64,000 bases of DNA. It comes from a phage. Under the pieces are notes generated by a model. It ran no database searches. It saw only the letters and a list, made by a program, of their open reading frames with translations, and had not been told where the DNA came from. Position 1 is the first letter of the stretch. Each line of letters starts with the position of its first letter. The position numbers and the translations under genes are program-made. Where the stretch lies: the NCBI GenBank assembly GCA_024449565.1, contig GCA_024449565.1_4810.1; one strand, given 5' to 3'. Positions 1 through 59,643 of the stretch are shown piece after piece.

Positions 1-55
1 AAAAAAAATAAAATTAAATTAGATATATAATTTTAAATTAATTTATTTGAATTCC
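1..55. other. AT-rich tract preceding repeat element A (possible DNA-unwinding element)
   Basis: Positions 1-55 are almost entirely A/T; a similar AT-rich tract precedes the second copy of the element near 14900-14960. Confidence 0.35.
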
Positions 56-150
56 TATAAAGTATCGCGGCAACGCGTATCATCCGTATCATCCGTAAGA
101 TTCTTTTGAAAACAACTACTTACTTGATACGGATGATACGTCATTATACG
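56..150. repeat. Iteron-like repeat element A
   Basis: TATAAAGTATCGCGGCAACGCGTATCATCCGTATCATCCGTAAGA (tandem CGTATCATC) followed by inverted copy TACGGATGATACG and CGTCATTATACG; near-identical element at about 14962-15090. Confidence 0.6.
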
Positions 151-184
151 CGTGAAATCCTGCGGCAATCCATTGCCAGGCGAT

Positions 185-322
185 TCAGTGAATATTAAAA
201 AGCACTCCAGCAACTAAAACGCCAATCAGCATTGAGTCATAAACAGCCCATTTCCAAGAAAGCAAAGAGTTGCAATTAATATTTCGCACTTTAACATAAC
301 GTGACTGAATAATCTTTTGCAT
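185..322 (-). CDS. small hydrophobic protein (45 aa, below the ORF-track cutoff)
   Basis: ATG at 322 preceded by AAAGAGGAAG Shine-Dalgarno; translation MQKIIQSRYVKVRNINCNSLLSWKWAVYDSMLIGVLVAGVLFNIH with hydrophobic C-terminus. Confidence 0.35.
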   Translation of the reverse strand: MQKIIQSRYVKVRNINCNSLLSWKWAVYDSMLIGVLVAGVLFNIH

Positions 323-3785: not shown

Positions 3786-4202
3786 ATGAGCACAACAATT
3801 GTATTTGTCGTCCTACACAACGGCGAAGTCGTTAACGTATGCGAATATGAAGAACTGGCAAAGGCCACTGCTGCGAGATACGAAGGTGCTACTATTGACC
3901 CGTGGATTTTAGATGCGCGCAGCGTCTTGCAGGCGACTTTAGATGAGTGGTTGTTGGGTCGCAAGGTCTATCCAGTAGACAACATCGACTCAATTCAAGG
4001 CGAAACAGTATACTTTGAAGATGAATGCGTTCGCGGCATCGGCAAATTTATGGGATTGTGCCCATCTTCATCCAAAAATAAATTCTATCGTATTCAAGTT
4101 GAAGAAAACGATATGTTTGATAAAGTCACGCGCTCGATTGTTCCTGGCGGCGGAACTCCAATCTTTATGGCAGAATCAGACATCAAGGGGATTATCAAAT
4201 GA
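3786..4202 (+). CDS. hypothetical protein
   Basis: AAAGGAG SD 7 nt upstream of ATG; plus-strand gene inserted between minus-strand terL and portal. Confidence 0.5.
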   Translation: MSTTIVFVVLHNGEVVNVCEYEELAKATAARYEGATIDPWILDARSVLQATLDEWLLGRKVYPVDNIDSIQGETVYFEDECVRGIGKFMGLCPSSSKNKFYRIQVEENDMFDKVTRSIVPGGGTPIFMAESDIKGIIK

Positions 4203-4438
4203 GAACTTTAACCGAACTCGATGTTTTGAAAGACGTTGCAGCGGCGCTGGGCGTTGAAGTCTCTGAAAAGTCGACACTGGGTGCTCTGCGTCGTGATTTA
4301 CTCGAAGCCGTCGACCGCAACGATTTTGATCGTAAGTGTTTGCAAAAGAAGATTCGACAGGCAGTAAGGGCGGGTAAGCGATTCCGTGCCAGGTCGTTTG
4401 CCGCAAGAAAGCTCGACCTTCAGCACGGAATGCTTTAA
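4199..4438 (+). CDS. hypothetical protein
   Basis: ATGA overlap with upstream gene; basic C-terminus; a 9-bp stem (4381-4389 / 4423-4431) lies in its 3' end. Confidence 0.4.
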   Translation: MRTLTELDVLKDVAAALGVEVSEKSTLGALRRDLLEAVDRNDFDRKCLQKKIRQAVRAGKRFRARSFAARKLDLQHGML

Positions 4439-4441
4439 TTG

Positions 4442-5902
4442 TTAAAGGTTAGAGAAGAAGCCGGATGCTGCAACAATTGGTTTCATCAACGCCATGATTG
4501 CTGCGTCCGCTTTGTTAGGCGATTTGACTCCACGCTTTGCCATATCCTTTTTCGATTCAACTTTAAACTTACCAAGCACAGACGTGTCTTTGCGCGGCGC
4601 TGACATCTCAAAAAGAAATGTCTCAATTTCTTCCGCAGACCAAGCAGGAATCCCAAGTTCTGGAATGCCGTCTGTGTCGATGGAAATCAGCTCATCAGTC
4701 GGGTATACGGCCTGCCCTGTTGCATACTCATATGTCTTCCTGAATCGTTCGGCAATCTCAGTCCATTTTTGCGCTTTTATGTTTGCGAAATGGTCTTTAT
4801 TGAGTATTTCAACGTGTGGTAACTCAAGGAAGACGTCATCAGGATCATCAACAGCACCTTGCGCGTTGAACGCATTAAATTCGATTCTTGGGAATGTTGG
4901 ATTTTCATGGATTGCATACTCATTAAGCTCATCAAATTTTGAACCAGCAAATGCACCAACACCGATGGCGTCATAGGTAATTGATGCGCCGAATGTTAAT
5001 GCATCTTTCCAAACTCCGCTTGCGGACTTAAGCAATTCATCTTCCAGACCTTCCCATGTCTTGATGCCGCGCAATACGTTGCCCGTGACAAATGCTGTGG
5101 CGTTTAAGTCGTCGCCGTCGTCCGCCACGTCGAAGCCTATACGGTTAGACCCTGACAAGCTCCATCCCAGCGTAGGGTGTTTGTGGAGGTTTAGCGCGGC
5201 TTTGACGAATGCACGGTTGATTACAGATTTGTCGCCGCCAGTCTTCGGAACGCCGCCATAAACGTGCTCTGCCTTTTTTGGGTCGCGCTCGTACATGCCT
5301 GCGATAACGTCCAGCATTGTTTGCGACAAGAATGGATTATCTTGCCAGTTTATCTTTTTAACAATGGCATTCTTCGGCGGTCGCATAACAAAGTTCTGGT
5401 AGACAAAATCGGCCTCTTCATCAGGGTTAAAGATGATCCATATTTCTGACCCTTCTTTACGGATTGTTGGCTCAATAATGTCCCACTGTTCTTCAGTAAG
5501 CGCGTGCGCTTCTTCCAGCCAAAGTACGTCAACACCTTCCGTTGATTTGATTTCATCAACATTACGTGCGATACCATAAAATAGAAATTCAGATTTAGTT
5601 CTTTTATGTTCGATAGAGTTCTTTAATAAATTGAACTCATCTTTGAAATCAGAAATTTCTATTTTGTCTTTTAATAGAGTATATACAGATTCAGAAATCT
5701 TGTTCTGGAATTGTCGAACGCAAAGGAATTTTAATTTGAAGTTTGCCGCCAAATAAATAGCAAAACCAGCGGCATCATGCGATTTGGAAGATGCACGACC
5801 GCCGTATATTACTTTGTATCGCGCTTTCGTCTTCCAGACTTCTTTTAAAGCAGGATTCAACTGGTACATGACTTTCCAATTATGTGTTAGTATTTTATTC
5901 AT
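4442..5902 (-). CDS. terL: terminase large subunit
   Basis: Walker A GGRASSKS near N-terminus, ATPase plus nuclease two-domain length (486 aa), position upstream of portal. Confidence 0.9.
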   Translation of the reverse strand: MNKILTHNWKVMYQLNPALKEVWKTKARYKVIYGGRASSKSHDAAGFAIYLAANFKLKFLCVRQFQNKISESVYTLLKDKIEISDFKDEFNLLKNSIEHKRTKSEFLFYGIARNVDEIKSTEGVDVLWLEEAHALTEEQWDIIEPTIRKEGSEIWIIFNPDEEADFVYQNFVMRPPKNAIVKKINWQDNPFLSQTMLDVIAGMYERDPKKAEHVYGGVPKTGGDKSVINRAFVKAALNLHKHPTLGWSLSGSNRIGFDVADDGDDLNATAFVTGNVLRGIKTWEGLEDELLKSASGVWKDALTFGASITYDAIGVGAFAGSKFDELNEYAIHENPTFPRIEFNAFNAQGAVDDPDDVFLELPHVEILNKDHFANIKAQKWTEIAERFRKTYEYATGQAVYPTDELISIDTDGIPELGIPAWSAEEIETFLFEMSAPRKDTSVLGKFKVESKKDMAKRGVKSPNKADAAIMALMKPIVAASGFFSNL

Positions 5903-5910
5903 ATTATAGT

Positions 5911-5939
5911 TTGCTTGTACAATCTATATCAAGTAAAAT
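5911..5939 (+). promoter_or_regulatory. sigma70-like promoter TTGCTT-17-TAAAAT
   Basis: Hexamers with 17-bp spacer; about 40 nt upstream of an intrinsic terminator. Confidence 0.35.
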
Positions 5940-5978
5940 TATGATTCCAGCTTAGTAGTGGATAAAGGGTGATCTTTC

Positions 5979-6006
5979 GGCCAGATTCTTTCTGGCCATT
6001 TTTTTT
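5979..6006 (+). terminator. rho-independent terminator
   Basis: GGCCAG-ATTCTTT-CTGGCC hairpin followed by an 8-T run. Confidence 0.55.
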
Positions 6007-10297: not shown

Positions 10298-10546
10298 ATG
10301 AATCAAAATGAATCAGTAGCGTTCTTACAATGGCTGGAAGGTGTTGTGGAGTATTACGCTCCAAAAGACCGTTTCATCTTTCAAGGCAAAAGTTATAAGC
10401 GCAAAGGACAGGCCCAGAAAGCTGCGCGCAAGTACTGGAAAGAAGTTTATTCAGAGTTCTTTCAGCAGATGGGCATCATCGGCTCGACCGTATCCGGCGA
10501 CCCAGCACAGTTGGTATCGATTGATGAATCCAATCGTCACAATTAA
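10298..10546 (+). CDS. hypothetical protein
   Basis: GAGGAT SD 5 nt upstream of ATG. Confidence 0.45.
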   Translation: MNQNESVAFLQWLEGVVEYYAPKDRFIFQGKSYKRKGQAQKAARKYWKEVYSEFFQQMGIIGSTVSGDPAQLVSIDESNRHN

Positions 10547-10621
10547 TAAATCGATTTGAATGCCGCGCTATGCGGCTTTATTATAGTTATTGTTAATCAC
10601 CCAAATATTGAAGGTAATGAT

Positions 10622-11002
10622 ATGTCAAATAAAAATGATTCTGTGAGTCACACATATACTAAAGGCAGCGGCATTGCTTTTGGTTCCAGCATCAAAATTG
10701 ACGCTCCACCTTGCTATTCTGATGGATTGGAAGTTGGCAACCGCGACTTAACATGGGTTTTACGTCGCCAATCCGATTTAGAAGAGAAGCTGGAAAATAT
10801 TGAGCGTTCTCTTGAAAGTCTTCGCGACCAGCTTTTTGGTTGTCCTGAAGATGAGTCAAAACCTGAATCATATGCAGCCAATCGCGGTTTGATTGATAAT
10901 ATGCTTGCTATTACCGCTCGATCAATTGGTAAAACTGTGTCCATTGAATCATTGATCAGCCAGATTGCGGATGGCTTTGGTGATGCCCATAAGAGCGAAT
11001 AG
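10622..11002 (+). CDS. hypothetical protein
   Basis: Start trimmed to ATG MSNKND with GAAGGTAA SD. Confidence 0.45.
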   Translation: MSNKNDSVSHTYTKGSGIAFGSSIKIDAPPCYSDGLEVGNRDLTWVLRRQSDLEEKLENIERSLESLRDQLFGCPEDESKPESYAANRGLIDNMLAITARSIGKTVSIESLISQIADGFGDAHKSE

Positions 11003-11032
11003 TGGGTGGATGTTGCTTTAACCGTGAATCGT

Positions 11033-11059
11033 GGGTCGCTTAGTGCGGCCCTTTATTTT
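11033..11059 (+). terminator. putative intrinsic terminator
   Basis: GGGTCGC-TTAGT-GCGGCCC hairpin followed by TTTATTTT. Confidence 0.45.
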
Positions 11060-11062
11060 GCC

Positions 11063-11134
11063 TGCCGCGCAGGAGTGTACTGCCGCGCAGGAGTGTACTG
11101 CCGCGCAGGAGTGTACTGCCGCGCAGGAGTGTAC
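11063..11134. repeat. perfect tandem repeat, 4 x 18 bp (TGCCGCGCAGGAGTGTAC)
   Basis: Four identical head-to-tail units read directly from the sequence; a partial fifth unit follows. Confidence 0.9.
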
Positions 11135-11755
11135 TGCAAATTTCCTGTGGGTACAAAATAGTACGGTACTGTCTAGGACTTTTTCTTTGAAAAGTTAGTG
11201 GACCAAATGTGTCGTATTTTGATTAGTGTACCGCAAATTCCATCAAGTAGCAAAACGCACCAAAAGACCCATGCCCTAAAAACCACACGAACGCAATAAT
11301 CAATCGCCGTTACAGTTTCCAGCGTTACAATTAGAAAGCGAATGATTCGATGCATAATAATATGAAGCATAATGATTCGAAAGCTAATGGTTGCGCGTAG
11401 GATGATATCGGGAGGGATTATTCGAGATGCGTGTAATTTCGCATGCGTACTATTTTCGGGCGAAGGGTCGGCATATTCTTCGTTTTAGCTCGGAACGAAG
11501 GGAAAGTTTTGCGCCTTTATAAAACAACGACTTACGCGACCCGCCTTAACGGTCCGATATAGGTGTCTATATAAAACAAGGACTTACGCGATGTTCTCCA
11601 TTTAACGTAATACCTGTTATGCGAACTAAGGCGCATCTCGACGAAGATTGTGCGACGACGAAGGGAAGGATAAAGGAGTTTTCGCGTAGGAGCTCATCGA
11701 GATAGGGACGAAGAAAAGCCGCGACTAAGCGCGGCCTATTAGTAACGGAAGGGTA

Positions 11756-12046
11756 TTATAAGGAGACGATTTTAAAGAAAGAGTAACGGCCTTCGCCTTC
11801 GGATACCGCGATATATTCGCCGCCGAACTCCGTAGCAAAATAAACCTTGCCTTCGATAGTAACGCGGAAGGTAGAAATATCTTCCTCTTCGAGTTCCGTA
11901 AATTCGCTAAAATCGATAGGACTATGAAGCTCCTCGATAGTCGCATCTACGTTAAAGAGATAAACGTTTTTAAGTTTTTCGCCAAATACGTTAGAGTTTT
12001 CGGAAGTTTCGACGCGAGCGGAACGGATAGCGGCCAAAGTAATCAT
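11756..12046 (-). CDS. small acidic protein, paralog family member 1
   Basis: AGGAGA SD; 96 aa, acidic; N-terminus MITLAAIRSARVE and NVDATIEE resemble those of the 12682 and 12154 genes. Confidence 0.5.
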   Translation of the reverse strand: MITLAAIRSARVETSENSNVFGEKLKNVYLFNVDATIEELHSPIDFSEFTELEEEDISTFRVTIEGKVYFATEFGGEYIAVSEGEGRYSFFKIVSL

Positions 12047-12153
12047 AATATTCTCCTAGTTAGTCGGGAGGGTAGCGACCTATTCGCTACCTCATCCCCT
12101 CTCGATATAAAACATTATAGTCTTAGTGTACGAAGAAGTAAAGCACTTTTTCG

Positions 12154-12456
12154 TTATTCTGCGATAAAATATTTATAAGCTTTATCGCCTTCTACGTCGA
12201 TATACTCGACGATAATTAACGCTTCGCCGCGCGGCGTAACCGTCTCGATAAGGGTAACGGCTTCGTCGTCGGTCTTCGCGAAGCGGATTGCGCTACGTTC
12301 GGCGTACTTAATATCATCGAAGGAAAGGCCGACGAAAGCGACCGCGCGGACCTTAATAATGGTAGATTCTAGTTCCGCGTTAACGGCAGCGATAAGAGAG
12401 CGAACGGTTAAACGGTCTTCGTCGTAAGTAAGGATAGAAGAGATTAAAGTAGTCAT
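12154..12456 (-). CDS. small acidic protein, paralog family member 2
   Basis: Start trimmed to ATG MTTLISS with GGGAG SD; same N-terminal pattern as neighbours. Confidence 0.45.
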   Translation of the reverse strand: MTTLISSILTYDEDRLTVRSLIAAVNAELESTIIKVRAVAFVGLSFDDIKYAERSAIRFAKTDDEAVTLIETVTPRGEALIIVEYIDVEGDKAYKYFIAE

Positions 12457-12681
12457 AATAAAACTCCCGATGCTAGTAGAAGGAAGGGCCATCACCCGTC
12501 TCGATACAAACAAGTATACGCGAGTGTACGAAGAAGTAAAGAAAAAAGATAAAATAATTTATCTCATTTTTATCGAAAAAGTGCTTTACTTTTTTCTACA
12601 CTATATTATAATGTACTCATATCGGGACGGGATGAGTTAACGAATAGGTCGTTAACGCCCGTCGAGAACTAGGAGTTTAAA

Positions 12682-12966
12682 ATGGCTATTCTTAACGTTT
12701 CTTCCATCCGTAACGCTATCGTCGAGAACTACGGCGTAAAACAAATTTTATCCGAAGTTTACGCCGCGAACGTAGACCAAACTATCGAGGCGGGTGGGGT
12801 AACGGTCGCCGAGGCTTTTAAACTTTACGCGGCGCTACCGGAATCGGACCGCGAAGCCTTCGAAGTAAACGTTAACGGATACTTCTTCGAAGCGGTCGAA
12901 ATCGGTAACATCTTACTCGTTATGGGCGAAGAAGAATTTGATACCTTCTCCCTCGTCGAAGCGTAA
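12682..12966 (+). CDS. small acidic protein, paralog family member 3
   Basis: AGGAG SD; MAILNVSSIRNAIVE and NVDQTIEA shared with the 11756 gene. Confidence 0.5.
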   Translation: MAILNVSSIRNAIVENYGVKQILSEVYAANVDQTIEAGGVTVAEAFKLYAALPESDREAFEVNVNGYFFEAVEIGNILLVMGEEEFDTFSLVEA

Positions 12967-13046
12967 GAGAGGATTTTTAGAGCGTCGTGCGCGGCGCTTT
13001 AATAAAATTCTTTCGCGCCTAGCGCCCTAACAAATAGGAGTTCATT

Positions 13047-13673
13047 ATGGTTAGCTTAAATCGTTTCTCGACTAGCGGCGACGTTATCGCAACTAAGACC
13101 GCCGACCTCGTTGCATTTTATAATGCAAATTCAGGTTCGAAGCCGATTAAAAAATTTGCGGACCGCCGGACCGCCGAGACTCGCGTAATCGCGCTAATCG
13201 AGTCCTTAAACGCGCTCGATGAGCCGTCCAACGAATCGCCAATCCCCGACGCGAAGCCGCGCGAGGAAGTGTCCAGCGATGTAAAAACGCATAAGGCGCG
13301 TGCGGTCGTTAAAAAGGCAGAGCCGACGCAGGAAGAACTCGACGCGATGAGCGATGAAGAGTATGAAGCCTTCGTTAAGAGCGGCTTAAACGATAGTGCA
13401 AATTGCGTAGTGCAAAATGGAACTCCTTCCCATCGCCGTTCGAATAGCGAAGGTATTGCAAAAAGTTGGGACAATAAGGAAGTGGCGCAAAAGCGTCTCA
13501 CCCGTAACGGCGTTATGGTCGAGGGTGTAGGAGAGTTCAAATCGGTCCGCGCAGCTTTCGCCGCGCTGGGATTACCGGATAGCAAGCACATTCGCTTCCG
13601 TATGAAGCTTAAGGAAGCTGGGCGCTTGAACTTCGAGTTCGGCAACAAGTCCTTTACCTTCCAGATTATCTAA
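13047..13673 (+). CDS. hypothetical protein
   Basis: AGGAG SD; 208 aa; contains two in-frame copies of the TAGTGCAAA(A)T motif. Confidence 0.5.
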   Translation: MVSLNRFSTSGDVIATKTADLVAFYNANSGSKPIKKFADRRTAETRVIALIESLNALDEPSNESPIPDAKPREEVSSDVKTHKARAVVKKAEPTQEELDAMSDEEYEAFVKSGLNDSANCVVQNGTPSHRRSNSEGIAKSWDNKEVAQKRLTRNGVMVEGVGEFKSVRAAFAALGLPDSKHIRFRMKLKEAGRLNFEFGNKSFTFQII

Positions 13674-13723
13674 TCGAATGGCGGCCCTTCGGGGTCGCTT
13701 TTCATAGTGCAAATTGGTGGCTT

Positions 13724-13987
13724 ATGAATACGCTTATTCTCATCGCTACGTTGTCCATCGGAAGTGGTCGCACCTTATCCCTTTATGACCATAGTGCAAA
13801 TTGCGCCTATCCTACGCGCGTTGCGGCGATAGTTAATAGTGCAAATAAGATGCTATTCGAGACTTGCTGGAGGGTCGATAACGAGAAAGGTCGGGTAGTC
13901 TTAGGCTATAGTGCAAATCTGCTGGTGGAGTCGTTCGATTGGACGGTTGAAGGTCGTAAATTGTTACGTAAAGTGACTAAAAGATGA
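13724..13987 (+). CDS. hypothetical protein (questionable; ORF spans three motif copies)
   Basis: ORF with GGTGG upstream, but three ATAGTGCAAAT copies fall in-frame inside it, so coding status is uncertain. Confidence 0.3.
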   Translation: MNTLILIATLSIGSGRTLSLYDHSANCAYPTRVAAIVNSANKMLFETCWRVDNEKGRVVLGYSANLLVESFDWTVEGRKLLRKVTKR

Positions 13988-14101
13988 CTTATAATAATAC
14001 ACTTTCTAACGCGTTTATGGTTACAACCTTCCCCGTCGTATTACCGATGGCCCTAGAAGTGGAGAAAATGTGTTCTAGGGCCGTTTTATAGTGCAAATTG
14101 G

Positions 14102-14575
14102 CTAGTGGCGGGAGAATTGCTCTCCTTCTTTGGCCGCCTCTCCAAAATCCTTGTAGAAATCATCCATGGAACGGCCCATTTTACTATTGCCATTTTCATC
14201 AATCATCGTGATGCCGTAGATGATATTCAGTTCACGAATGGCATTAAGTTTGGCTGATGCCGCGACTTCTGGATCACGCACAAGCTTCACTAGATTGTGG
14301 ATGGAACTCTTTACGCTCCACAATTCCTTCAATGGCATCTCTTCCATACGCTTTTTGTAGCGCATCTTGTAGTACGGATTGCGCTGAGTGCACAGGATTC
14401 GCTGGCCAGTGTAGTTATCGGTCGCAACCTCCATGCCAAATACTAGTGCAAAAGCTGCGCGCATGTCATGGCCTTGAATAACAAGGTCAATGAACTCATC
14501 GAATAATGCCTGATTATGCTCTGCAAATCGCGGGTCTTCAAAGTCTTCAGGCATTGCTACATAATCTTGACTCAT
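14102..14575 (-). CDS. hypothetical protein (possible HTH DNA-binding; small-terminase-like is speculative)
   Basis: Start trimmed to ATG MSQDYVA; the start codon lies inside a motif copy; helix-rich N-terminal segment FIDLVIQGHDMRAAFALVFG. Confidence 0.4.
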   Translation of the reverse strand: MSQDYVAMPEDFEDPRFAEHNQALFDEFIDLVIQGHDMRAAFALVFGMEVATDNYTGQRILCTQRNPYYKMRYKKRMEEMPLKELWSVKSSIHNLVKLVRDPEVAASAKLNAIRELNIIYGITMIDENGNSKMGRSMDDFYKDFGEAAKEGEQFSRH

Positions 14576-14802
14576 AGTGCAAATCCCATAGTGCAAATTA
14601 ATAGTGTGAATTATACAATGAATGAACATTATATTCAAGTGCAGATTGATGTTCAAATTGGCTGTAAACGTACATAAATCATAGTGCTAAATGAATAGCG
14701 GACCGTGATGCGTGGTGTACTGTTTGATACGTATAAAAGAAATCCATCCCTTTCGCCGCTTGCTATGCAAATCAATGACTTAGCCGCTGCTGGCTGGTTG
14801 AA

Positions 14803-15090
14803 GCGTATCATGACGTATCATCCGTATTGCCGCAAGTCTTTGTTTTTACTTATATCTTACGGATAATACGTATAAATATAAGTTCAGTATAAGTATGAGG
14901 ATGTAGAAAAAAATTAATTTAAATTAATTCAAAATGGAGTTAATTGTTTTTTTCAAAGTTGTATAAAGTATAGCGGCGACGCGTATCATCCGTATCATCC
15001 GTAAGATGTACCATTGAACCCAGTCGCGGCGCACCATAGAAGTGTGTGGAGTGAACTACGGATAGGTCCAAATCTTACGTCATTATACGT
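14803..15090. repeat. Iteron-like repeat region B (homolog of element A)
   Basis: GCGTATCATGACGTATCATCCGTATTGCCGCAAG, inverted TTACGGATAATACG, then TATAAAGTATAGCGGCGACGCGTATCATCCGTATCATCCGTAAGATG (near-identical to 56-100) and CGTCATTATACG; AT-rich tract at about 14897-14961. Confidence 0.6.
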
Positions 15091-15374
15091 TTAAATTCTA
15101 TGCGTAAGGTTAGCCAGCTAACTATATCTCCTTTTTAATTTCAAGCGGCAATCCCAGAGACGGCGCACCATGTACACAAACACACCACGGTACACGCTCC
15201 AATTCCTAGTGATTTCCTCTCCAATCCCACAACACCACAGTACAATAATCTTCCAAAACCGCACACATATTCAAGACGCAAAATTCACGTCACAATCCTC
15301 ACTACCAACGACACTCTAATAGATTTACACAAATCAATCGATTTATCCGATAATAAAGACTCACATTCCACAGG

Positions 15375-15399
15375 CAAATAAAAAGGGCCAATCGGCCCT
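15375..15399 (-). terminator. rho-independent terminator (minus strand)
   Basis: GGGCC-AATC-GGCCC hairpin with T-run on the minus strand, directly after the stop of the 15417 gene. Confidence 0.55.
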
Positions 15400-15416
15400 C
15401 TTAACATTAATCATAA

Positions 15417-15869
15417 TTAAAATATAAAATTCTTCACTCCAAGCCTTTTAAATTCTTTCCTTAACATCATATTAAACTTCTTCAATTTAGTTTTATTCAT
15501 CCTTAGCGGATTGTAGGTGAACACCTTTTCTATTACTTCCTCACTCATTTTTGAGCGCATATTAGTTGCGTAATAGTTCTTGAACGTATAAATAAGGTAA
15601 TTTGCTTCAAGCTTAAGTTCAATTACTTCCTCCGATTCATCAAGCTCAAGCAATCCTCTTTGCGTAAGAATATCTCTTAATATATCCTGACATTTCTTGC
15701 AATCACCTTTGCCTAAAAGCGAGTCGATGTAATCGCCGCTGACGCGCTCATCACCGAAGTATGTTGCGCGACCACAAAGGCTTTGCACTTCTCCTTCGTC
15801 AAAGTAGTGCGCGCGATGAGCCCACTTCGGTATGGCCCAACCAGCGGCGATAAGCTTATTACCCATCAC
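15417..15869 (-). CDS. hypothetical early protein
   Basis: Last gene of a tightly tiled minus-strand array; followed by terminator. Confidence 0.45.
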   Translation of the reverse strand: MMGNKLIAAGWAIPKWAHRAHYFDEGEVQSLCGRATYFGDERVSGDYIDSLLGKGDCKKCQDILRDILTQRGLLELDESEEVIELKLEANYLIYTFKNYYATNMRSKMSEEVIEKVFTYNPLRMNKTKLKKFNMMLRKEFKRLGVKNFIF

Positions 15870-16465
15870 CCCTCCTTAACGACCCGATAAGCGATGATGT
15901 CTGAACCATAGCCAAGCAACGTTCTGTTCCAACCGATGCAGTCAGAAAAGACATCGTTAGCGACAATGCCGTCTCTGTATTTGACGTCTACCCGTTTCCC
16001 AGGCACCGGATTCTCACCGCCATGCCACGCTGTCCAAGCATCACCATCATTGCTCTTGACAACACGATAAGCAGCAATGTCGCTGCCATTTAACGCTCCT
16101 ATATGGCCCCAGTGAAGATGGTCAGAAAGTCTTGATAAAACTTTATCAGCCCCATCACGCAGCTTGTATTCAACAATCTCGCCAGGCACCGGATTCAAGC
16201 CACCAAACCACACATTCCACGCTTCTTCCTTCGGCGCATCCTCATCCACGCCTATAGTAGCAACGACGTCGTGCAACTGCTTAACAAGCGCCGACGCATC
16301 ACGGACCTGTGAGCGTAATGCAACCAACTCGCGTTGCGCTTCACTGTATTTCGCTTCCAGCGCGGCATAGTCCTCATATTCAACATAGCCGCCTTCATCA
16401 TCCTTTACAACTTCGCAGGTGCAAGCGTGCTGCGTGCAATAATCAACATCGTAACGTTGTATCAT
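15866..16465 (-). CDS. hypothetical protein with two copies of a W-GG-NPVPG ... DIIAYRVV repeat
   Basis: Internal duplication of a roughly 50-aa module; a third copy is in the 17943 gene. Confidence 0.5.
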   Translation of the reverse strand: MIQRYDVDYCTQHACTCEVVKDDEGGYVEYEDYAALEAKYSEAQRELVALRSQVRDASALVKQLHDVVATIGVDEDAPKEEAWNVWFGGLNPVPGEIVEYKLRDGADKVLSRLSDHLHWGHIGALNGSDIAAYRVVKSNDGDAWTAWHGGENPVPGKRVDVKYRDGIVANDVFSDCIGWNRTLLGYGSDIIAYRVVKEG

Positions 16466-54825: not shown

Positions 54826-57006
54826 TCACCACTTCAAAGGTGTAGCAGTAAGGTTGTTTATGTCATTGATATCATCTTGTTCAAGCACTCGTTTCGTTTC
54901 GAATGCCGTGCTGCGTGGGTCTTGAGCGCCGTTGACGTTGATGACAACGTTTTTCTGACCCATAGTAATATCACGCCCACCAGGTCGACTATTCGCGGAA
55001 AGGTCGCCGCCGTATTTCTGGAATGCCTCAAGTTGGAATGCAGCAAGACGAGCATTCTTCATCGCTTCGGCTTGAATGTTCGGTCTTACACCTGGAGTTG
55101 AAGCCAGTTGCATGTTTTTAATATAATCCCTTTGCGTTCCAAGTTTAAGGTAAGTTTGAGCAAAGTCAATATCGCCTTTGTTAACTTGCCCTTGCATCAA
55201 CTGCTCAACTGGCACGTTTAGGTATCCTGCAACGGCTTCTTGCAACTGTCTGTATTGCACCGTTTGGCGGGATTGGCCTTGTACTGGTGCATAACGGCCC
55301 TTTGGTGCTTCCGCTCCGCTACCGCTAAGTACTGGAGTAACTGGTGCACCTTGCGGCGCTCCTGTGGCGTATTCTCCATTCGCCTGTCGGTCGAGAGCGG
55401 CCATTACCTTGCCAGGGTATGCACGGGTGTTCTTTCCCCATCCGCTTCGGTCATATCCACCGTGATACATAGTCAGCGCAAGATTCCAATCGCCATTGGC
55501 AGCTGTTAAATATTCCTTGAGAAGTTGAGCGCCGCCCATAATGTTTTGTCTTGGGTCGTTACCGTCTGTGATACCAAGTCCCTTGAAGTTGGAAGGCATT
55601 ATTTGCATCAATCCGGTCGCGCCTGCTCCGCTCACAGCGTTAGGGTTGAATCCAGATTCGACTTCTGTGACGGCCTTCATCATCGCAACAGGGATTCCAT
55701 AACGCTTGGAAGCTTCCTCATAGATTGAGTCATATGCAGTCGGATTTCCTGACCCCAAGTTGTTGCCTACGGTCGCACCAGTGCTTAGTGCTGGTGTGCC
55801 AGGCATTGCGGATTGGCCTGCGCTTCGTCCTATCTCACCAGCCCATGCAGCCCACGCTTGTCGCTCATCAATAACACCAGCAAAGGTTGAAACGGCGCTT
55901 GAAAACAGGTTGATGTCGCGAGTGAAAAGTGCTTGCGCAGAGCGTTGTTCAGCCGCGTTTTGCTCCTGGTTCCTCTGGCGCTTCACATCGCCGTCAGCCA
56001 TCTGAGTTATCCATCTATCAACGGCACGCTCGTGACGCTCGTTAACAGCCGCCTGTTTATCGAACGGGTGTTTCAAATCAGCGATGAAATTGTCGACAAA
56101 TTCAGACCATCCATCAGACATCCTTTGGAACATCATCTGGAATCCTTCGACTGTATCGGCAGTCTTGCTGACAAGCGTCGAGAATGCTGGCATCACGTTC
56201 TCGCCGATTACCAGTTCAATGCGTCGCCAGTCTTCTTGAATTTGGCCCATGCTGTTTCGTATCGTTTCAAGCGCAGCCTGCTGTCTTTGCAGCTTCGCCG
56301 TTTCTTCGTCGCTTATACGGGTGCTTTCTTTGACTGATTGATTTCGCTCACGAAGCGCACGGACTTCATCGGCGGTAAAACCTGCCAGAGCACCAATAGC
56401 ACGAGCGGTTTGCTCATTCACACTTCTCAGCTTTGTGCCAATTTCATCAAGCAGCTGGTTTGTGTCTTTGATGCCGCCGTTACTGTTGAAAGGACTGGTC
56501 CCCATCTTGTTCAGCAGCAAGTTATCCTTGTTCATCACATCTGGGTTGGTGTATGCGTTGAATGCGAGATTAGAAGCCTTGCTGATTAAATCCCTTGACC
56601 CTTGCGCACCAAGAACTCCGCCTGAACTTTCATTCAATTGTCGCTGTAATTGCTCTACGCCAATTGGTGAAAGACCTGCTTCAAATCCAAGCTTCCTTTG
56701 CGCTTCGTATTCTTTTCGAACATCAACGATAGATTTGACTACGACAGCCAATCCTGCGACAACAGGGACGAGCGCGGCAAAGCGATAAGTAAGCCGCGCA
56801 AGGATTCCGTCAATAGACCCCAGTTCAGCTGTGAGAGGCTTCAACTCACCAAACACATCCTTGAATGCTCCAGTGAAGTCTTTGCCAGCGGACTTTGCCT
56901 TTTTGTTTGTCTGATCAACCTTATCTTGCAATTGCTCAAGACGATTGATGGACTCTTTCAAGTCCACCGTATATTGAAGAACAAATTTTTCTAATGAGTC
57001 AGACAC
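54826..57006 (-). CDS. tail tape measure protein with lytic transglycosylase (SLT) domain
   Basis: Coiled-coil-rich N-terminal two-thirds; C-terminal EVESGFNPNAVSGAGATGLMQIM SLT motif; GTG start with AAGGGG SD. Confidence 0.65.
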   Translation of the reverse strand: MSDSLEKFVLQYTVDLKESINRLEQLQDKVDQTNKKAKSAGKDFTGAFKDVFGELKPLTAELGSIDGILARLTYRFAALVPVVAGLAVVVKSIVDVRKEYEAQRKLGFEAGLSPIGVEQLQRQLNESSGGVLGAQGSRDLISKASNLAFNAYTNPDVMNKDNLLLNKMGTSPFNSNGGIKDTNQLLDEIGTKLRSVNEQTARAIGALAGFTADEVRALRERNQSVKESTRISDEETAKLQRQQAALETIRNSMGQIQEDWRRIELVIGENVMPAFSTLVSKTADTVEGFQMMFQRMSDGWSEFVDNFIADLKHPFDKQAAVNERHERAVDRWITQMADGDVKRQRNQEQNAAEQRSAQALFTRDINLFSSAVSTFAGVIDERQAWAAWAGEIGRSAGQSAMPGTPALSTGATVGNNLGSGNPTAYDSIYEEASKRYGIPVAMMKAVTEVESGFNPNAVSGAGATGLMQIMPSNFKGLGITDGNDPRQNIMGGAQLLKEYLTAANGDWNLALTMYHGGYDRSGWGKNTRAYPGKVMAALDRQANGEYATGAPQGAPVTPVLSGSGAEAPKGRYAPVQGQSRQTVQYRQLQEAVAGYLNVPVEQLMQGQVNKGDIDFAQTYLKLGTQRDYIKNMQLASTPGVRPNIQAEAMKNARLAAFQLEAFQKYGGDLSANSRPGGRDITMGQKNVVINVNGAQDPRSTAFETKRVLEQDDINDINNLTATPLKW

Positions 57007-57009
57007 AGT

Positions 57010-57426
57010 TTACCCCTTGTTTGGAGTCTCGCCGCTGAGGAATGGCGCGATTAATCGCATCGATTCGCCAATAAATGCTGCAGCCATTTCGCCGCCAACC
57101 TGTTCCCAGTATCCTTCACGTTCAGCGTGAGTCTCTGGGTTGATTCCGTTTTCCATCAACACCGCTTCGAAAACCAATTTTAAGTTTTCCCAGTCGCCAA
57201 GATGGTTGTCAATAAGTGCGCCAGTGCTCAGAGGAATTTCTTGCCCGACATCAAGTTCAACCTTCGCAAAGCTTAATACTTCCATTGTGTATTCTGAACG
57301 AAAGGCGGGGTCTTTTGACATCGCAAATTCGATGAATCGGCGCTGTATGTTCCAACCTTCCATCGCAGTCATTTTGCTGATTTTAATTTCTACTTTGCGA
57401 CCAGTTTGTTTATTGGTGATCTTCAT
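57010..57426 (-). CDS. tail assembly chaperone (tentative)
   Basis: Small gene immediately upstream of tape measure; AGGAATAT SD. Confidence 0.4.
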   Translation of the reverse strand: MKITNKQTGRKVEIKISKMTAMEGWNIQRRFIEFAMSKDPAFRSEYTMEVLSFAKVELDVGQEIPLSTGALIDNHLGDWENLKLVFEAVLMENGINPETHAEREGYWEQVGGEMAAAFIGESMRLIAPFLSGETPNKG

Positions 57427-57427
57427 T

Positions 57428-57988
57428 TTATATTCCTACTGTTGATTTTATTTTATTATATAACGAACTCACAGTTGTAGTCAAACTGACTGGCTCTTTA
57501 ATAGCCACGCCATTTGACGATTCATCTGCGGACTGTTTAGGGTCAAAGCTTCCTTGAATACTAAATGACGTCTGTTCAAATGTTATTACAATTGAGACTC
57601 CATTCAGGTTTTCTTCTGACTGAGTTATTTCGACATCAGACATCGACATTTTGCTTGCAATTATGCTTCGAGAAGTTATTGAAAATGTAACTTCATCATT
57701 GTCGAATGTATTAATTATGTTTTCAATAGTCGATTGGTCATTGCAAATTACGTTTAGCGCCATGTGCGCTGGCATTATTACTTTTGCCGCCTGTAGATTG
57801 CTTACTGAGGATATGCTTGATACTTCCACCACCTGCATTGCCGTTCCAGCAAGTGGAAATTGAGTGGTTTCTGCTGGTGATGTTATTTCTGCAGATACTG
57901 GAGAAAGCTTTGTCCATACAGGAATCCCTGTTGACTCATTCGTTATGGTCAAAGATTGACCAGAGAGCAGAATCGAAACAAAGTCCAT
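57428..57988 (-). CDS. hypothetical tail protein
   Basis: Tiled ORF within the tail module. Confidence 0.4.
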   Translation of the reverse strand: MDFVSILLSGQSLTITNESTGIPVWTKLSPVSAEITSPAETTQFPLAGTAMQVVEVSSISSVSNLQAAKVIMPAHMALNVICNDQSTIENIINTFDNDEVTFSITSRSIIASKMSMSDVEITQSEENLNGVSIVITFEQTSFSIQGSFDPKQSADESSNGVAIKEPVSLTTTVSSLYNKIKSTVGI

Positions 57989-58521
57989 CAGAACATCCCC
58001 TTGATGCCATTCATCACCTTTGTTGCAACGCCAGTGACGCTGGCAGTGGTTTCTTTTATATAAGCTATGCCGCGCTCGATGACAGTTGAGTCGGCTGCTT
58101 GCGCTGTTTGAATAGACACATCCTGCTGTGTTAATATTTCGTGGAATACCAGTTGTATGGGTTGTGAAGTTATATTGTCAGCATCTTGGCTGAAATTGTT
58201 ATTTTGCAGCACCATACGTTCAAATATTAGCCCACGAGAATTTATTGTGTATATCGTGGACCTGTTTTGCAACATCTTTGCGATTGCGTCGGACGCGCTT
58301 TTTGTCTGTGCTATTACAGTCACAGTCAATATTCTAGGCATTTTGACTCTGCCATCGACGATATAGCTTCCGTCTTCCCTTTGGTTTTTGAATATCTTTG
58401 CTTGGAGTCTTATTTTAACGTTAACAATCGCCCAACCAAGCGTTGACACTTCCCCAAGGTTGAAGCTTCTTATTGTGAAGCTTCTGTTGGAAAGACTATA
58501 TGACAATAAATCGATAGCCAT
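57988..58521 (-). CDS. hypothetical tail protein
   Basis: Tiled ORF within the tail module. Confidence 0.4.
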   Translation of the reverse strand: MAIDLLSYSLSNRSFTIRSFNLGEVSTLGWAIVNVKIRLQAKIFKNQREDGSYIVDGRVKMPRILTVTVIAQTKSASDAIAKMLQNRSTIYTINSRGLIFERMVLQNNNFSQDADNITSQPIQLVFHEILTQQDVSIQTAQAADSTVIERGIAYIKETTASVTGVATKVMNGIKGMF

Positions 58522-59287: not shown

Positions 59288-59643
59288 TATTGATTACTCA
59301 CCTTTATACGTTCGCCATAAATAGTCACCACTTCAGCGGTGAATCCAAGAATACCGTTTTGGATGGTGACAGTCAATGAGTCGATTCCGGCAACGTCTGC
59401 TTTCTTCAGAATAGCATCTGCAATCGACTTTCTCGCACCGTCTTCATCAACGGGCGATTTGAAAACAGTGCCCAAATAATCGACTCCGTTTTCAACATCG
59501 TACAAGTCTTCACCAAGTCGCATTTGATGCGCCGCCTTGATAACTTGTACCATGGCCTTTTCTCCTGACAGAATATTCAAATTTCTTCCATCAGGCAGAA
59601 ACAGGTCATTGTTATCATTAACTTCAATCGTTAGAGTTGTCAA
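59287..59643 (-). CDS. hypothetical tail protein
   Basis: Tiled ORF within the tail module. Confidence 0.4.
   Translation of the reverse strand: MTTLTIEVNDNNDLFLPDGRNLNILSGEKAMVQVIKAAHQMRLGEDLYDVENGVDYLGTVFKSPVDEDGARKSIADAILKKADVAGIDSLTVTIQNGILGFTAEVVTIYGERIKVSNQ

What the first reader, a model, noticed from the sequence alone, without database searches (positions are those of the whole stretch)
13393..14692. Array of at least 11 same-orientation ATAGTGCAAAT motifs spanning coding and non-coding DNA
Eleven-plus copies of a 11-bp motif occur in 1.3 kb, all on the plus strand, some as tandem doublets or triplets. They fall in-frame (AGT GCA AAT, Ser-Ala-Asn) inside two ORFs and overlap the start codon of the minus-strand gene at 14575. 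That density and orientation bias is far beyond chance and fits none of the promoter or terminator types seen elsewhere here. Possibilities are an iteron-type origin, a partition or packaging-site array, or binding sites for an island-encoded protein.
Basis: seen in the sequence. Interest (0 to 1): 0.7.

Follow-up and report, generated by a model that had tools for sequence, protein, structure and literature searches.

The report
One-way motif array around small-terminase gene
An 11-base motif is repeated 10 to 13 times, always on the same strand, around the small-terminase gene near one physical end of this E. coli phage genome; it is most likely a protein-binding platform for DNA packaging and for control of that gene, but no binding has been tested.

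Summary
ATAGTGCAAAT occurs 8 times exactly between 13393 and 14598. The 9-base core occurs 10 times, and there are 13 copies at two or fewer mismatches. All are on the + strand, and there are none elsewhere in the 64 kb window.

The window is a Wifcevirus, an E. coli myovirus of about 68 kb. The "island" is the left half of its ~3.7 kb direct terminal repeat (about 11263-14935). The minus-strand gene at 14102-14575 is the small terminase, TerS (E 9e-33 to the E217 TerS structure 7UXE).

Read in terS sense the motif is ATTTGCACTAT. Copies start 244 bp inside the mapped genome end. They cover the terS promoter -10/start region, ribosome-binding site and ATG, then run through terS and two convergent genes.

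In the complete Mansfield genome all 9 near-exact copies lie 338-1807 bp from the left end. The array, with this strand and placement, persists in four metagenomic relatives (TerS 45-70% identical). Individual copies have turned over.

Best explanation (about 0.4, inferred): a cosB/pac-like TerS recognition platform that also represses terS. Iteron origin, partition site and promoter class are poorly supported. I rate it a new variant of a known kind, of moderate interest.

The parts
13393..13403 (+). Exact motif copy. It lies in the poorly conserved acidic linker of the 208-aa ORF and is read as D-S-A-N.
13407..13417 (+). Degenerate copy GTAGTGCAAAA (9-base core exact). It is the doublet partner 14 bp after 13393.
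13704..13714 (+). Exact copy directly after the terminator hairpin of the 208-aa ORF and 9 nt before the ATG of the 87-aa ORF.
13791..13801 (+). Exact copy inside the 87-aa ORF (H-S-A-N). The same position is kept in L003.
13836..13846 (+). Exact copy inside the 87-aa ORF. It encodes the N-S-A(-N) residues; N-S-A is invariant in the four aligned relatives and also present in the L004 ORF.
13908..13918 (+). Exact copy inside the 87-aa ORF (Y-S-A-N). An E. coli Chi site (GCTGGTGG, 13921-13928) follows it.
14088..14098 (+). Exact copy between the terminator of the 87-aa ORF and the terS stop codon.
14443..14453 (+). Copy CTAGTGCAAAA (core exact) inside terS, at codons A-F-A-L-V. The same position is kept in L003.
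14574..14584 (+). Exact copy. Its last bases on the minus strand form the terS ATG.
14588..14598 (+). Exact copy in the terS 5' leader. The GGG between it and the previous copy is the annotated ribosome-binding site.
14601..14611 (+). Degenerate copy (ATTCACACTAT in terS sense) fused to the -10 hexamer TATAAT of the terS promoter. It covers the expected transcription start.
14681..14691 (+). Degenerate copy ATAGTGCTAAA, the copy nearest the genome end (244 bp).
13120..13130 (+). Outlying 1-mismatch copy ATAATGCAAAT inside a small palindrome in the 208-aa ORF. Its membership of the array is weakest.
14102..14575 (-). terS, the small terminase subunit (157 aa).
   Evidence: E 9e-33 to PDB 7UXE, the E217 small terminase. 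Annotated as TerS in Mansfield. The AF2 model shows an N-terminal helical/HTH domain, oligomerisation helices and C-terminal strands.
14610..14656 (-). Two overlapping sigma-70-like promoters for terS (TTGAAC-17-TATAAT and TTGAAT-17-TATAAT).
   Evidence: The -10 hexamer is fused to a motif copy in the window, L003, L004 and L009.
14770..14782 (+). IHF consensus match AATCAATGACTTA, between the array and the genome end.
   Evidence: It is the only match in 11000-15300. The consensus is kept in all 12 aligned Wifcevirus sequences, and the same position and orientation occur upstream of terS in L003 and L008.
14905..14935 (.). AT-rich stretch ending at the mapped physical genome end (left end of virion DNA and outer edge of the direct terminal repeat).
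   Evidence: Position 1 of both the Mansfield record (PhageTerm) and the WFC contig maps to window 14935. A similar AAATTAAT-N-AAATTAAT element lies near the putative pac site of Pbunavirus JG024.
11263..14935 (.). Direct terminal repeat (about 3.67 kb). It is present once in this window, and the array fills its end-proximal half.
13724..13987 (+). 87-aa ORF. It is a real conserved small protein with a signal-peptide-like N-terminus. It carries 3 copies and is found only in the motif-bearing lineages examined.
13047..13673 (+). 208-aa ORF (phrog_4730), a two-domain protein of unknown function, convergent with terS.

Best explanation
The array is a set of DNA-binding sites that marks the end-proximal part of the terminal repeat for the packaging machinery. 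I infer that the binding protein is the ring-shaped small terminase (TerS), encoded in the middle of the array.

**Proposed mechanism.**
1. TerS oligomers, possibly helped by IHF bending at 14770-14782, load cooperatively on the 10 to 13 same-orientation ATTTGCACTAT sites (terS sense).
2. These sites begin 244 bp inside the cut position at about 14935 and extend about 1.3 kb inward.
3. This nucleoprotein complex identifies phage concatemer DNA and positions the large terminase for the cut at the AT-rich end region. It would work like lambda cosB next to cosN, or SPP1 pacL/pacR around pacC.
4. The three end-proximal sites lie on the terS -10/start region, ribosome-binding site and ATG. The same binding would therefore shut off terS once enough protein is made.

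**Shown here.**
- The array, its strand bias and its uniqueness in the genome.
- The identity of terS.
- Its position relative to the mapped end, the promoter, the ribosome-binding site and the ATG.
- Its conservation in distant relatives, with turnover of individual copies.

**Inferred.**
- That a protein binds the sites.
- That this protein is TerS.
- That binding serves packaging and autoregulation.
For: **1. Non-random and unique.** There are 8 exact and 10 core copies, all + strand and all within 1.3 kb, with none elsewhere in the 64 kb window or in the whole 68 kb Mansfield genome.

**2. Centred on terS.** The gene matches the E217 small terminase 7UXE at E 9e-33.

**3. Close to the physical end.**
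- Position 1 of the Mansfield record (PhageTerm) and of the WFC contig both map to window 14935.
- A terminal repeat of about 3.7 kb was reported independently.
- The array lies 244-1532 bp inside that end.

**4. Conserved in relatives.** Four metagenomic relatives with TerS only 45-70% identical keep A-T-[T/C]-T-G-C-A-C-T-A-T arrays.
- They are always on the terS sense strand. Counts by strand are 7/0, 8/0, 8/0 and 2/0, against 0.1 or fewer expected.
- Between L004 and L009, motif columns are 84% identical against 64% elsewhere (20 of 2000 random placements reach this).
- Between the window and L003, only about half of the copies keep their position. This suggests selection on number and orientation rather than on exact positions.

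**5. Conserved micro-architecture at terS.** The pattern is TATAAT fused to a copy, then copy-GG(G)-copy, with the last copy supplying the ATG. It is seen in the window, L003 and (degenerate) L008. The -10 fusion is also seen in L004 and L009.

**6. IHF site.** A conserved IHF consensus site lies between the array and the end, as in lambda cosB.

**7. Related phage.** In Pbunavirus JG024, which packages by a headful mechanism, the experimentally suggested pac site (59,376) lies in the homologous non-coding region upstream of terS (59977). It has its own same-strand short repeats and a similar AT-rich element.

**8. Dose sensitivity of TerS.** The TerS review states that TerS dose is critical and that E217 TerS overexpression lowers infectivity (PMC9611059). 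This fits autoregulation.

**9. Weak extra.** An unrelated phage contig (L071) carries 7 tandem copies of the same core inside the 5' part of its own terS.
Against: - No binding data exist.
- The homologous E217 TerS showed no appreciable DNA binding in vitro (PMC9611059).
- The second helix of the predicted TerS HTH (residues 38-46) varies among relatives that keep the same motif core. A classical recognition-helix read-out by TerS is therefore not obvious.
- More distant TerS homologues lack this motif: Pbunavirus, MyoSmar, Burkholderia WTB, L021 and L022. Co-variation could only be hinted at, not shown.
- Chi sites in relatives point towards the terS-proximal end. That end is therefore at some stage free for RecBCD entry rather than protein-capped.
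- A spread of 1.3 kb through three genes is far larger than any characterised cosB or pac site.
- The physical ends were mapped in relatives (94-96% identical), not in this phage itself.
Confidence: 0.4

Rival explanations
1. The sites form an operator array for a different DNA-binding protein, either phage-encoded elsewhere in the genome or from the host. This protein would silence or time expression of the terS / 87-aa / 208-aa module, with no direct role in packaging.
For: - Copies sit on the terS -10/start region, ribosome-binding site and ATG, and just upstream of the ribosome-binding site of the 87-aa ORF.
- The putative TerS recognition helix is not conserved while the motif is.
- E217 TerS did not bind DNA in vitro.
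- The motif-bearing lineages form one clade, which could share an unidentified regulator.
Against: - Most copies lie inside coding sequence or downstream of genes, where an operator has no obvious use.
- The strict single orientation and the maintenance of about 8 to 13 copies over 1.3 kb go beyond what promoter control needs.
- No candidate regulator was found in the terminal repeat; Pfam and PHROG give no DNA-binding hits.
- The neighbouring 208-aa protein is nearly invariant in its C-terminal domain in Pbunavirus, which lacks the motif. It also occurs far from any terS in other phages.
- The 87-aa protein looks secreted.
Confidence: 0.25
2. The array is a replication origin in which short iterons are bound by a phage initiator, with unwinding in the nearby AT-rich region.
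For: - The sites are direct repeats with one orientation.
- An AT-rich stretch at 14905-14960 and an IHF site lie nearby.
- The cumulative GC skew turns at about 14.9-15.1 kb.
- In relatives such as Pbunavirus, MyoSmar and L021, the primase gene lies directly upstream of terS, with repeat-rich non-coding DNA between them.
- Short-octamer origins exist, for example P4 ori/crr (from my own knowledge).
Against: - Spacing is irregular (13 to 355 bp) and not phased.
- Most copies are within three coding sequences spread over 1.3 kb.
- There is no exact DnaA box in the terminal repeat.
- In Wifcevirus the primase genes are about 10-12 kb away across the genome end (Mansfield 55893-58148).
- The skew turn coincides with the switch in gene orientation.
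- Repeats in the primase-terS spacer of relatives belong to a different family (TATCCGTA / TTATCCGATA).
Confidence: 0.1
3. The motif is an orientation-dependent signal read by a DNA translocase or nuclease entering from the nearby genome end. It would be a Chi-like protective or pausing signal rather than a stable binding platform.
For: - Orientation is strictly unidirectional relative to the end.
- In relatives the same zone is packed with E. coli Chi sites in the orientation active for RecBCD entering from the terS-proximal end: L004 has 7, L009 has 5, and MyoSmar has 4 within 340 bp.
- The window has one Chi site inside the array.
Against: - The E. coli Chi sequence is known and different.
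- No E. coli enzyme is known to read this sequence (from my own knowledge).
- The tight fit of copies to the terS -10, ribosome-binding site and ATG is not explained by this reading.
Confidence: 0.05
4. The motif acts in RNA. AUUUGCACUAU repeats in a long terS transcript would be bound by a translational repressor or another RNA-binding factor.
For: - All copies from 14601 down to 13393 would lie on one minus-strand transcript. It would start at the terS promoter and run to a terminator-like hairpin at 13301-13287.
- Two copies flank the ribosome-binding site and one covers the AUG.
Against: - Copies downstream of the terS stop would lie in untranslated antisense RNA, with no obvious target.
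- One copy overlaps the -10 hexamer, which is a DNA-level position.
- There was no Rfam match at or above any family's gathering score and no structured element.
- No transcript data exist.
Confidence: 0.05

Closest known systems
Lambda cosB (R3-I1-R2-R1 sites for gpNu1, next to cosN and just before the Nu1 gene)
   Same: - Several short TerS-binding sites lie on one side of the cut site.
- An IHF site lies in between.
- The small-terminase gene follows immediately.
- The site is unique in the genome.
   Different: - Lambda has 3 sites of 16 bp within about 120 bp of non-coding DNA, and it makes cohesive ends.
- Here there are 10 to 13 sites of 11 bp, all in one orientation, spread over 1.3 kb through three genes, in a phage with a 3.7 kb direct terminal repeat.
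- TerS binding is unproven here.
SPP1/SF6 pac (pacL-pacC-pacR, bound by the TerS G1P)
   Same: - There are multiple short contact boxes.
- They extend from upstream of the TerS gene into it.
- TerS is a ring oligomer. HHpred in the Mansfield record links this TerS to SF6 TerS.
   Different: - SPP1 packages by the headful mechanism, with boxes flanking the cut on both sides within about 300 bp.
- Here the array is on one side only, and the phage has fixed ends with a long repeat.
P1 pac (4 + 3 copies of the hexamer TGATCA/G inside pacA, with an IHF site)
   Same: A many-copy short motif lies inside the small-terminase gene region, with a host bending-protein site nearby.
   Different: - The P1 hexamers are Dam-methylation sites within 162 bp and flank the cut.
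- The present motif has no GATC and is dispersed.
Plasmid R1 parC (10 direct 11-bp repeats around the parMR promoter, bound by ParR)
   Same: - There are about ten direct 11-bp repeats.
- They overlap the promoter of the adjacent operon.
- Binding would build a higher-order complex and also autorepress.
   Different: - parC repeats are contiguous (one per helical turn), in two blocks of five.
- This is a virulent phage, and the annotated relative has no ParM/ParR or ParA/ParB genes.
Iteron origins (plasmid Rep iterons; P4 ori/crr octamers)
   Same: Same-orientation short repeats lie near AT-rich DNA and an IHF site.
   Different: - Spacing is irregular.
- The location is mostly coding.
- No adjacent initiator gene or DnaA box was found.

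Membership tests
Terminase recognition site (cosB / pac type) | Lies at or next to the small-terminase gene | tested here: met
   The array spans terS (14102-14575) and both of its flanks. terS matches 7UXE at E 9e-33.
Terminase recognition site (cosB / pac type) | Lies close to the site where packaging cuts the DNA | tested here: met
   The ends of two relatives (Mansfield by PhageTerm, and the WFC contig) map to window 14935, and the nearest copy is 244 bp inside. The end was not measured for this phage itself.
Terminase recognition site (cosB / pac type) | Unique in the genome | tested here: met
   There are no copies at one or fewer mismatches outside the array in the 64 kb window or in the full Mansfield genome.
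Terminase recognition site (cosB / pac type) | Bound specifically by TerS | not testable with these tools
   This needs EMSA, footprinting or ChIP. The indirect signs are mixed. E217 TerS did not bind DNA in vitro, and the predicted HTH helix 38-46 is variable.
Terminase recognition site (cosB / pac type) | Required in cis for packaging | not testable with these tools
   This needs plasmid-packaging or transduction assays, or recoded phage.
Iteron-type replication origin | Regularly spaced direct repeats (typically 17-22 bp) clustered in a short non-coding region | tested here: not met
   The units are 11 bp, spacing is 13 to 355 bp, and the array covers 1.3 kb, mostly inside three ORFs.
Iteron-type replication origin | Adjacent initiator gene and DnaA boxes / AT-rich unwinding element | tested here: inconclusive
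   AT-rich DNA at 14905-14960 and an IHF site are present. There is no exact DnaA box in 11000-15300. No initiator gene was recognised nearby, and the primase genes are about 10-12 kb away in Mansfield.
Partition centromere (parS / parC) | Partner ParA/ParB or ParM/ParR genes in the same genome | tested here: not met
   None is annotated in the complete Mansfield genome. The local ORFs have no Pfam hits.
Promoter class (sigma-70 or phage-specific) | Occurs upstream of many genes, oriented with them | tested here: not met
   The motif is confined to one 1.3-1.8 kb zone. It has the same orientation regardless of gene direction, and most copies are intragenic.
Chi (RecBCD recognition) | Sequence GCTGGTGG in E. 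coli | tested here: not met
   The motif is a different sequence. A true Chi site is present separately at 13921.
Known RNA family | Match to an Rfam model | tested here: not met
   There is only one sub-threshold chance hit in 10500-16000.

The most novel reading that the evidence does not exclude
The array is the device by which a long-terminal-repeat phage recognises its repeat. A decameric TerS ring, or a filament of rings, would load directionally on about ten one-way 11-bp sites spread over more than 1 kb inside the repeat. IHF would bend the DNA towards the AT-rich cut region. This single complex would define the left cut, set the packaging direction and throttle terS expression.

If true, this would be the first defined cis-recognition element for a myovirus with kilobase-long direct terminal repeats. 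It would also explain why E217-type TerS shows no binding to short DNA probes.
Probability: 0.25. Interest if true: 0.7.

Novelty: new variant of a known kind. Interest (0 to 1): 0.5.

Why it matters
- **Open question.** How phages with long direct terminal repeats choose their cut sites and duplicate the repeat is poorly understood. For the Wifcevirus/Pbunavirus TerS family the only structural study found no DNA binding.
- **What this offers.** A conserved, genome-unique, one-way array wrapped around terS gives a concrete DNA substrate to test.
- **Practical uses.** The motif marks the genome end in assemblies of this phage group. It also shows where engineering, such as synthetic rebooting or insertions, is likely to disturb packaging.
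- **If it is only an operator.** It would still be an unusual gene-spanning regulatory array in a phage group of therapeutic interest.

Tried and rejected
- **Pfam on six local ORFs:** no hits.
- **PHROGs:** only families of unknown function for TerS and the 208-aa ORF.
- **Rfam:** nothing relevant.
- **The 208-aa protein as candidate binder:**
  - The PDB profile search and Pfam at relaxed thresholds gave only a weak NUMOD-like hint in one member.
  - The AF2 model is good in the C-terminal domain, but Foldseek against PDB found nothing significant, only weak winged-helix look-alikes.
  - Its conservation in motif-less Pbunavirus, and its occurrence away from terS in other phages, argue against it.
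- **The 87-aa ORF:** I first thought it might be spurious, because relative L004 had no gene call there. This was rejected. A conserved ORF exists in L004 too.
- **Within-genus conservation test:** uninformative, because the 12 genomes are about 95% identical everywhere.
- **Simple k-mer searches for arrays in MyoSmar, Pbunavirus, WTB and L022:** only borderline or different repeats.
- **Literature search for the motif sequence:** only unrelated primer-type hits.
- **The primary E217 terminase paper:** not available in the library.
- **The 'transcriptional regulator' annotated near this region in phage F13:** absent from the window.
- **DnaA-box reading:** by eye, the motif differs from TTWTNCACA at positions 1 and 9. 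There are no exact boxes in the repeat.
- **IMG/VR scan for motif doublets:** mostly chance single hits. The four non-Wifcevirus arrays are tight tandem repeats and cannot be tied to a common protein.
Full report
**What is in the sequence**

- The motif ATAGTGCAAAT occurs exactly 8 times, at 13393, 13704, 13791, 13836, 13908, 14088, 14574 and 14588. There is one more copy with one mismatch at 13120. All are on the + strand. Shuffled sequence gives about 2.3 such matches in 64 kb on both strands and never reached 9.
- The 9-base core TAGTGCAAA occurs 10 times, all + strand and all within 13394-14597.
- Allowing two mismatches adds 13407, 14443, 14601 and 14681.
- There is a doublet at 13393/13407 and a triplet at 14574/14588/14601 (spacings 14, 14 and 13 bp).
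- Four exact copies are read as Ser-Ala-Asn in the 208-aa and 87-aa ORFs. The copy at 14574 overlaps the ATG of the minus-strand gene.
"Eleven or more" is true only with degenerate copies included.

**What the region is**

- The window is a Wifcevirus, an E. coli myovirus of about 68 kb. The best hits are 94-96.5% identical.
- The minus-strand gene at 14102-14575 is the small terminase. It matches the solved TerS of Pseudomonas phage E217 (7UXE, a decamer) at E 9e-33. It is annotated as TerS in phage Mansfield. Its AF2 model has the expected helical N-terminal domain, oligomerisation helices and C-terminal strands.
- WFC and WFH were reported with terminal repeats of about 3.7 kb.
- Position 1 of both the Mansfield record and the WFC contig maps to window 14935. 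The inner edge of the repeat maps to about 11263.
The array lies 244 to 1532 bp inside the left physical end, or 1805 bp counting the weak copy at 13120.

**Genome-wide and cross-species tests**

- In the complete Mansfield genome, all 9 copies at one or fewer mismatches lie at 338-1807 on the terS sense strand. There are none in the other 66 kb.
- Metagenomic relatives found through TerS carry the same motif: L003 (TerS 70% identical), L009 (53%), L004 (50%) and L008 (45%).
  - In terS sense it reads A-T-[T/C]-T-G-C-A-C-T-A-T.
  - It is always on the terS strand.
  - It runs from roughly 100 bp upstream of terS to several hundred bp downstream.
  - Counts of T[CT]TGCACTA by strand are 7/0, 8/0, 8/0 and 2/0, against 0.1 or fewer expected.
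- L004 and L009 are 64% identical overall in nucleotides. Their motif columns are 84% identical, and only 20 of 2000 random placements reach that value.
- Between the window and L003, about half of the copies keep their position and the rest have moved.
- What is maintained is therefore the number, the orientation and the zone. This pattern fits a cooperative binding platform.
- More distant TerS-bearing phages lack this motif: Pbunavirus phiKT28 and JG024, Serratia MyoSmar, Burkholderia WTB, L021 and L022. MyoSmar also has terS inside a PhageTerm-predicted terminal repeat.

**Fine structure at terS**

- Two overlapping sigma-70-like promoters (TTGAAC-17-TATAAT and TTGAAT-17-TATAAT) lie at 14656-14610 on the minus strand.
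- The downstream TATAAT is fused to a degenerate motif copy that covers the expected start site.
- Two exact copies then fill the leader of about 27 nt.
  - The GGG between them is the annotated ribosome-binding site.
  - The last copy supplies the ATG.
- The same layout (TATAAT-copy, then copy-GG-copy with the ATG) is present in L003 and, in degenerate form, in L008. The -10 fusion is also present in L004 and L009.
- Any protein occupying these sites would block terS expression.
- Elsewhere, two copies follow directly after the terminator hairpins of the 208-aa and 87-aa ORFs. One lies in the non-conserved linker of the 208-aa protein.

**Between the array and the end**

- The only IHF consensus match in 11000-15300 is at 14770-14782.
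- Its consensus positions are unchanged in all 12 aligned Wifcevirus sequences; the only substitution, in F13, falls at an unspecified position.
- It recurs at the same distance and orientation upstream of terS in L003 and L008.
- The end itself lies in an AT-rich stretch at the centre of an imperfect inverted repeat.
- In Pbunavirus JG024, which packages by a headful mechanism, restriction and long-read data suggested a pac site at 59,376. This is in the homologous non-coding region about 600 bp upstream of terS.
  - That region carries its own same-strand GGTAATTTG repeats.
  - It also has an AAATTAAT-N-AAATTAAT element like the one at the Wifcevirus end.

**Who binds?**

- TerS is the obvious candidate by position and by analogy.
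  - Lambda cosB lies next to cosN and Nu1.
  - SPP1 pacL/pacR makes multiple TerS contacts around the cut.
  - The P22 pac site lies inside the TerS gene (review PMC9611059).
  - The P1 pac hexamer clusters lie inside pacA (from my own knowledge).
- The same review notes that the TerS level is critical and that E217 TerS overexpression lowers infectivity. This fits an autoregulatory site.
- Three points count against TerS.
  - E217 TerS showed no appreciable DNA binding in vitro.
  - The second helix of the predicted HTH (residues 38-46) varies among relatives that keep the same motif.
  - Conserved basic residues lie instead in helices 56-79.
- The neighbouring 208-aa protein is a poor candidate.
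  - Its C-terminal domain is almost unchanged in Pbunavirus, which lacks the motif.
  - Homologues occur in nucleotide-metabolism operons far from any terS.
  - Its model has no significant fold match.
- The 87-aa ORF is a real conserved protein found only in the motif-bearing lineages. It has a signal-peptide-like N-terminus and does not look like a DNA binder.

**Verdict**

- Best explanation (confidence about 0.4): a one-sided, cosB/pac-like recognition platform for the terminase inside the terminal repeat, whose end-proximal sites also repress terS.
- Rivals:
  - an operator array for another regulator (0.25);
  - a short-iteron origin (0.1);
  - a Chi-like directional signal (0.05);
  - an RNA-level element (0.05).
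- A partition site and a promoter class fail their defining features.
- No literature hit describes the motif, and no Wifcevirus packaging study was found.
- I rate it a new variant of a known kind, with moderate interest (0.5).
- It would be more interesting if the array proves to be how long-repeat phages define their ends.

Noticed in passing
window 13921-13928; L004 323-4348; L009 411-1836; L005 (MyoSmar) 5653-5993: E. coli Chi sites cluster near terS in relatives, all in one orientation: 7 in L004, 5 in 2 kb of L009, and 4 within 340 bp in MyoSmar. That orientation is the one active for RecBCD entering from the terS-proximal genome end. The window has one such Chi inside the array and only three in 64 kb. 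This suggests end protection against RecBCD in this phage group.
   Followed up: partly
window 40-200 (+), 14945-15110 (+), 14780-14900 (-): There are three copies of an element of about 110 bp. It contains the 9-bp tandem CGTATCATC CGTATCATC CGTAAG and its inverted partner. Two copies form an imperfect inverted repeat centred on the physical end (about 14935). In Mansfield the same family also clusters at 16081-16328, upstream of the head protease gene. It is probably a regulatory or promoter element, and it is not unique to the end.
   Followed up: partly
window 11062-11151 and 11126-11239: An 18-bp tandem repeat (CTGCCGCGCAGGAGTGTA, about 4 copies here and one in Mansfield) lies about 110-200 bp outside the inner edge of the terminal repeat. 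A pair of AGTGTACYGCAAATT sequences 97 bp apart lies beside that edge. The pair is present in 6 of 10 Wifceviruses checked and loosely resembles the main motif.
   Followed up: partly
L071 3898-3981 (IMG/VR contig 3300000557_000058): An unrelated phage carries 7 tandem 12-bp units CTTTTGCACTAT, with the same core as the motif. They lie inside the 5' part of its own small-terminase gene (phrog_24579, E 3e-21), directly upstream of its large terminase. They encode DSAK repeats and are in the opposite orientation relative to terS. This may be coincidence or a parallel solution.
   Followed up: partly
L020 (JG024) 1614-2146; L006 (phiKT28) 4129-4654: Pbunaviruses have about 5 same-strand GGTAATTTG repeats and an AT-rich AAATTAAT-N-AAATTAAT element around the published putative pac position, upstream of terS. 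The repeat count is only borderline above shuffled controls.
   Followed up: partly
L021 5943-6406: A Pbunavirus-like metagenomic phage (TerS 41% identical) has 8-9 copies of TTATCCGATA between its primase and terS. These resemble the TATCCGTA family near the Wifcevirus end.
   Followed up: no
window 11756-12046 (-), 12154-12513 (-), 12682-12966 (+): Three small acidic ORFs in the terminal repeat have no family hits. Their sequences look related, and long inverted repeats lie between their upstream regions (12073-12156 and 12571-12654). They may be early host-takeover or anti-restriction genes.
   Followed up: no
window 13047-13673: The 208-aa protein (phrog_4730) has two confidently folded domains joined by a disordered acidic linker. 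Homologues reach Pbunavirus and phages in which the gene sits among thymidylate synthase, DUF932 and primase genes. It has no significant structural match, and its function is unknown.
   Followed up: partly
window 14850-15150: The cumulative GC skew peaks here. The peak coincides with the physical end and with the switch in gene orientation.
   Followed up: no
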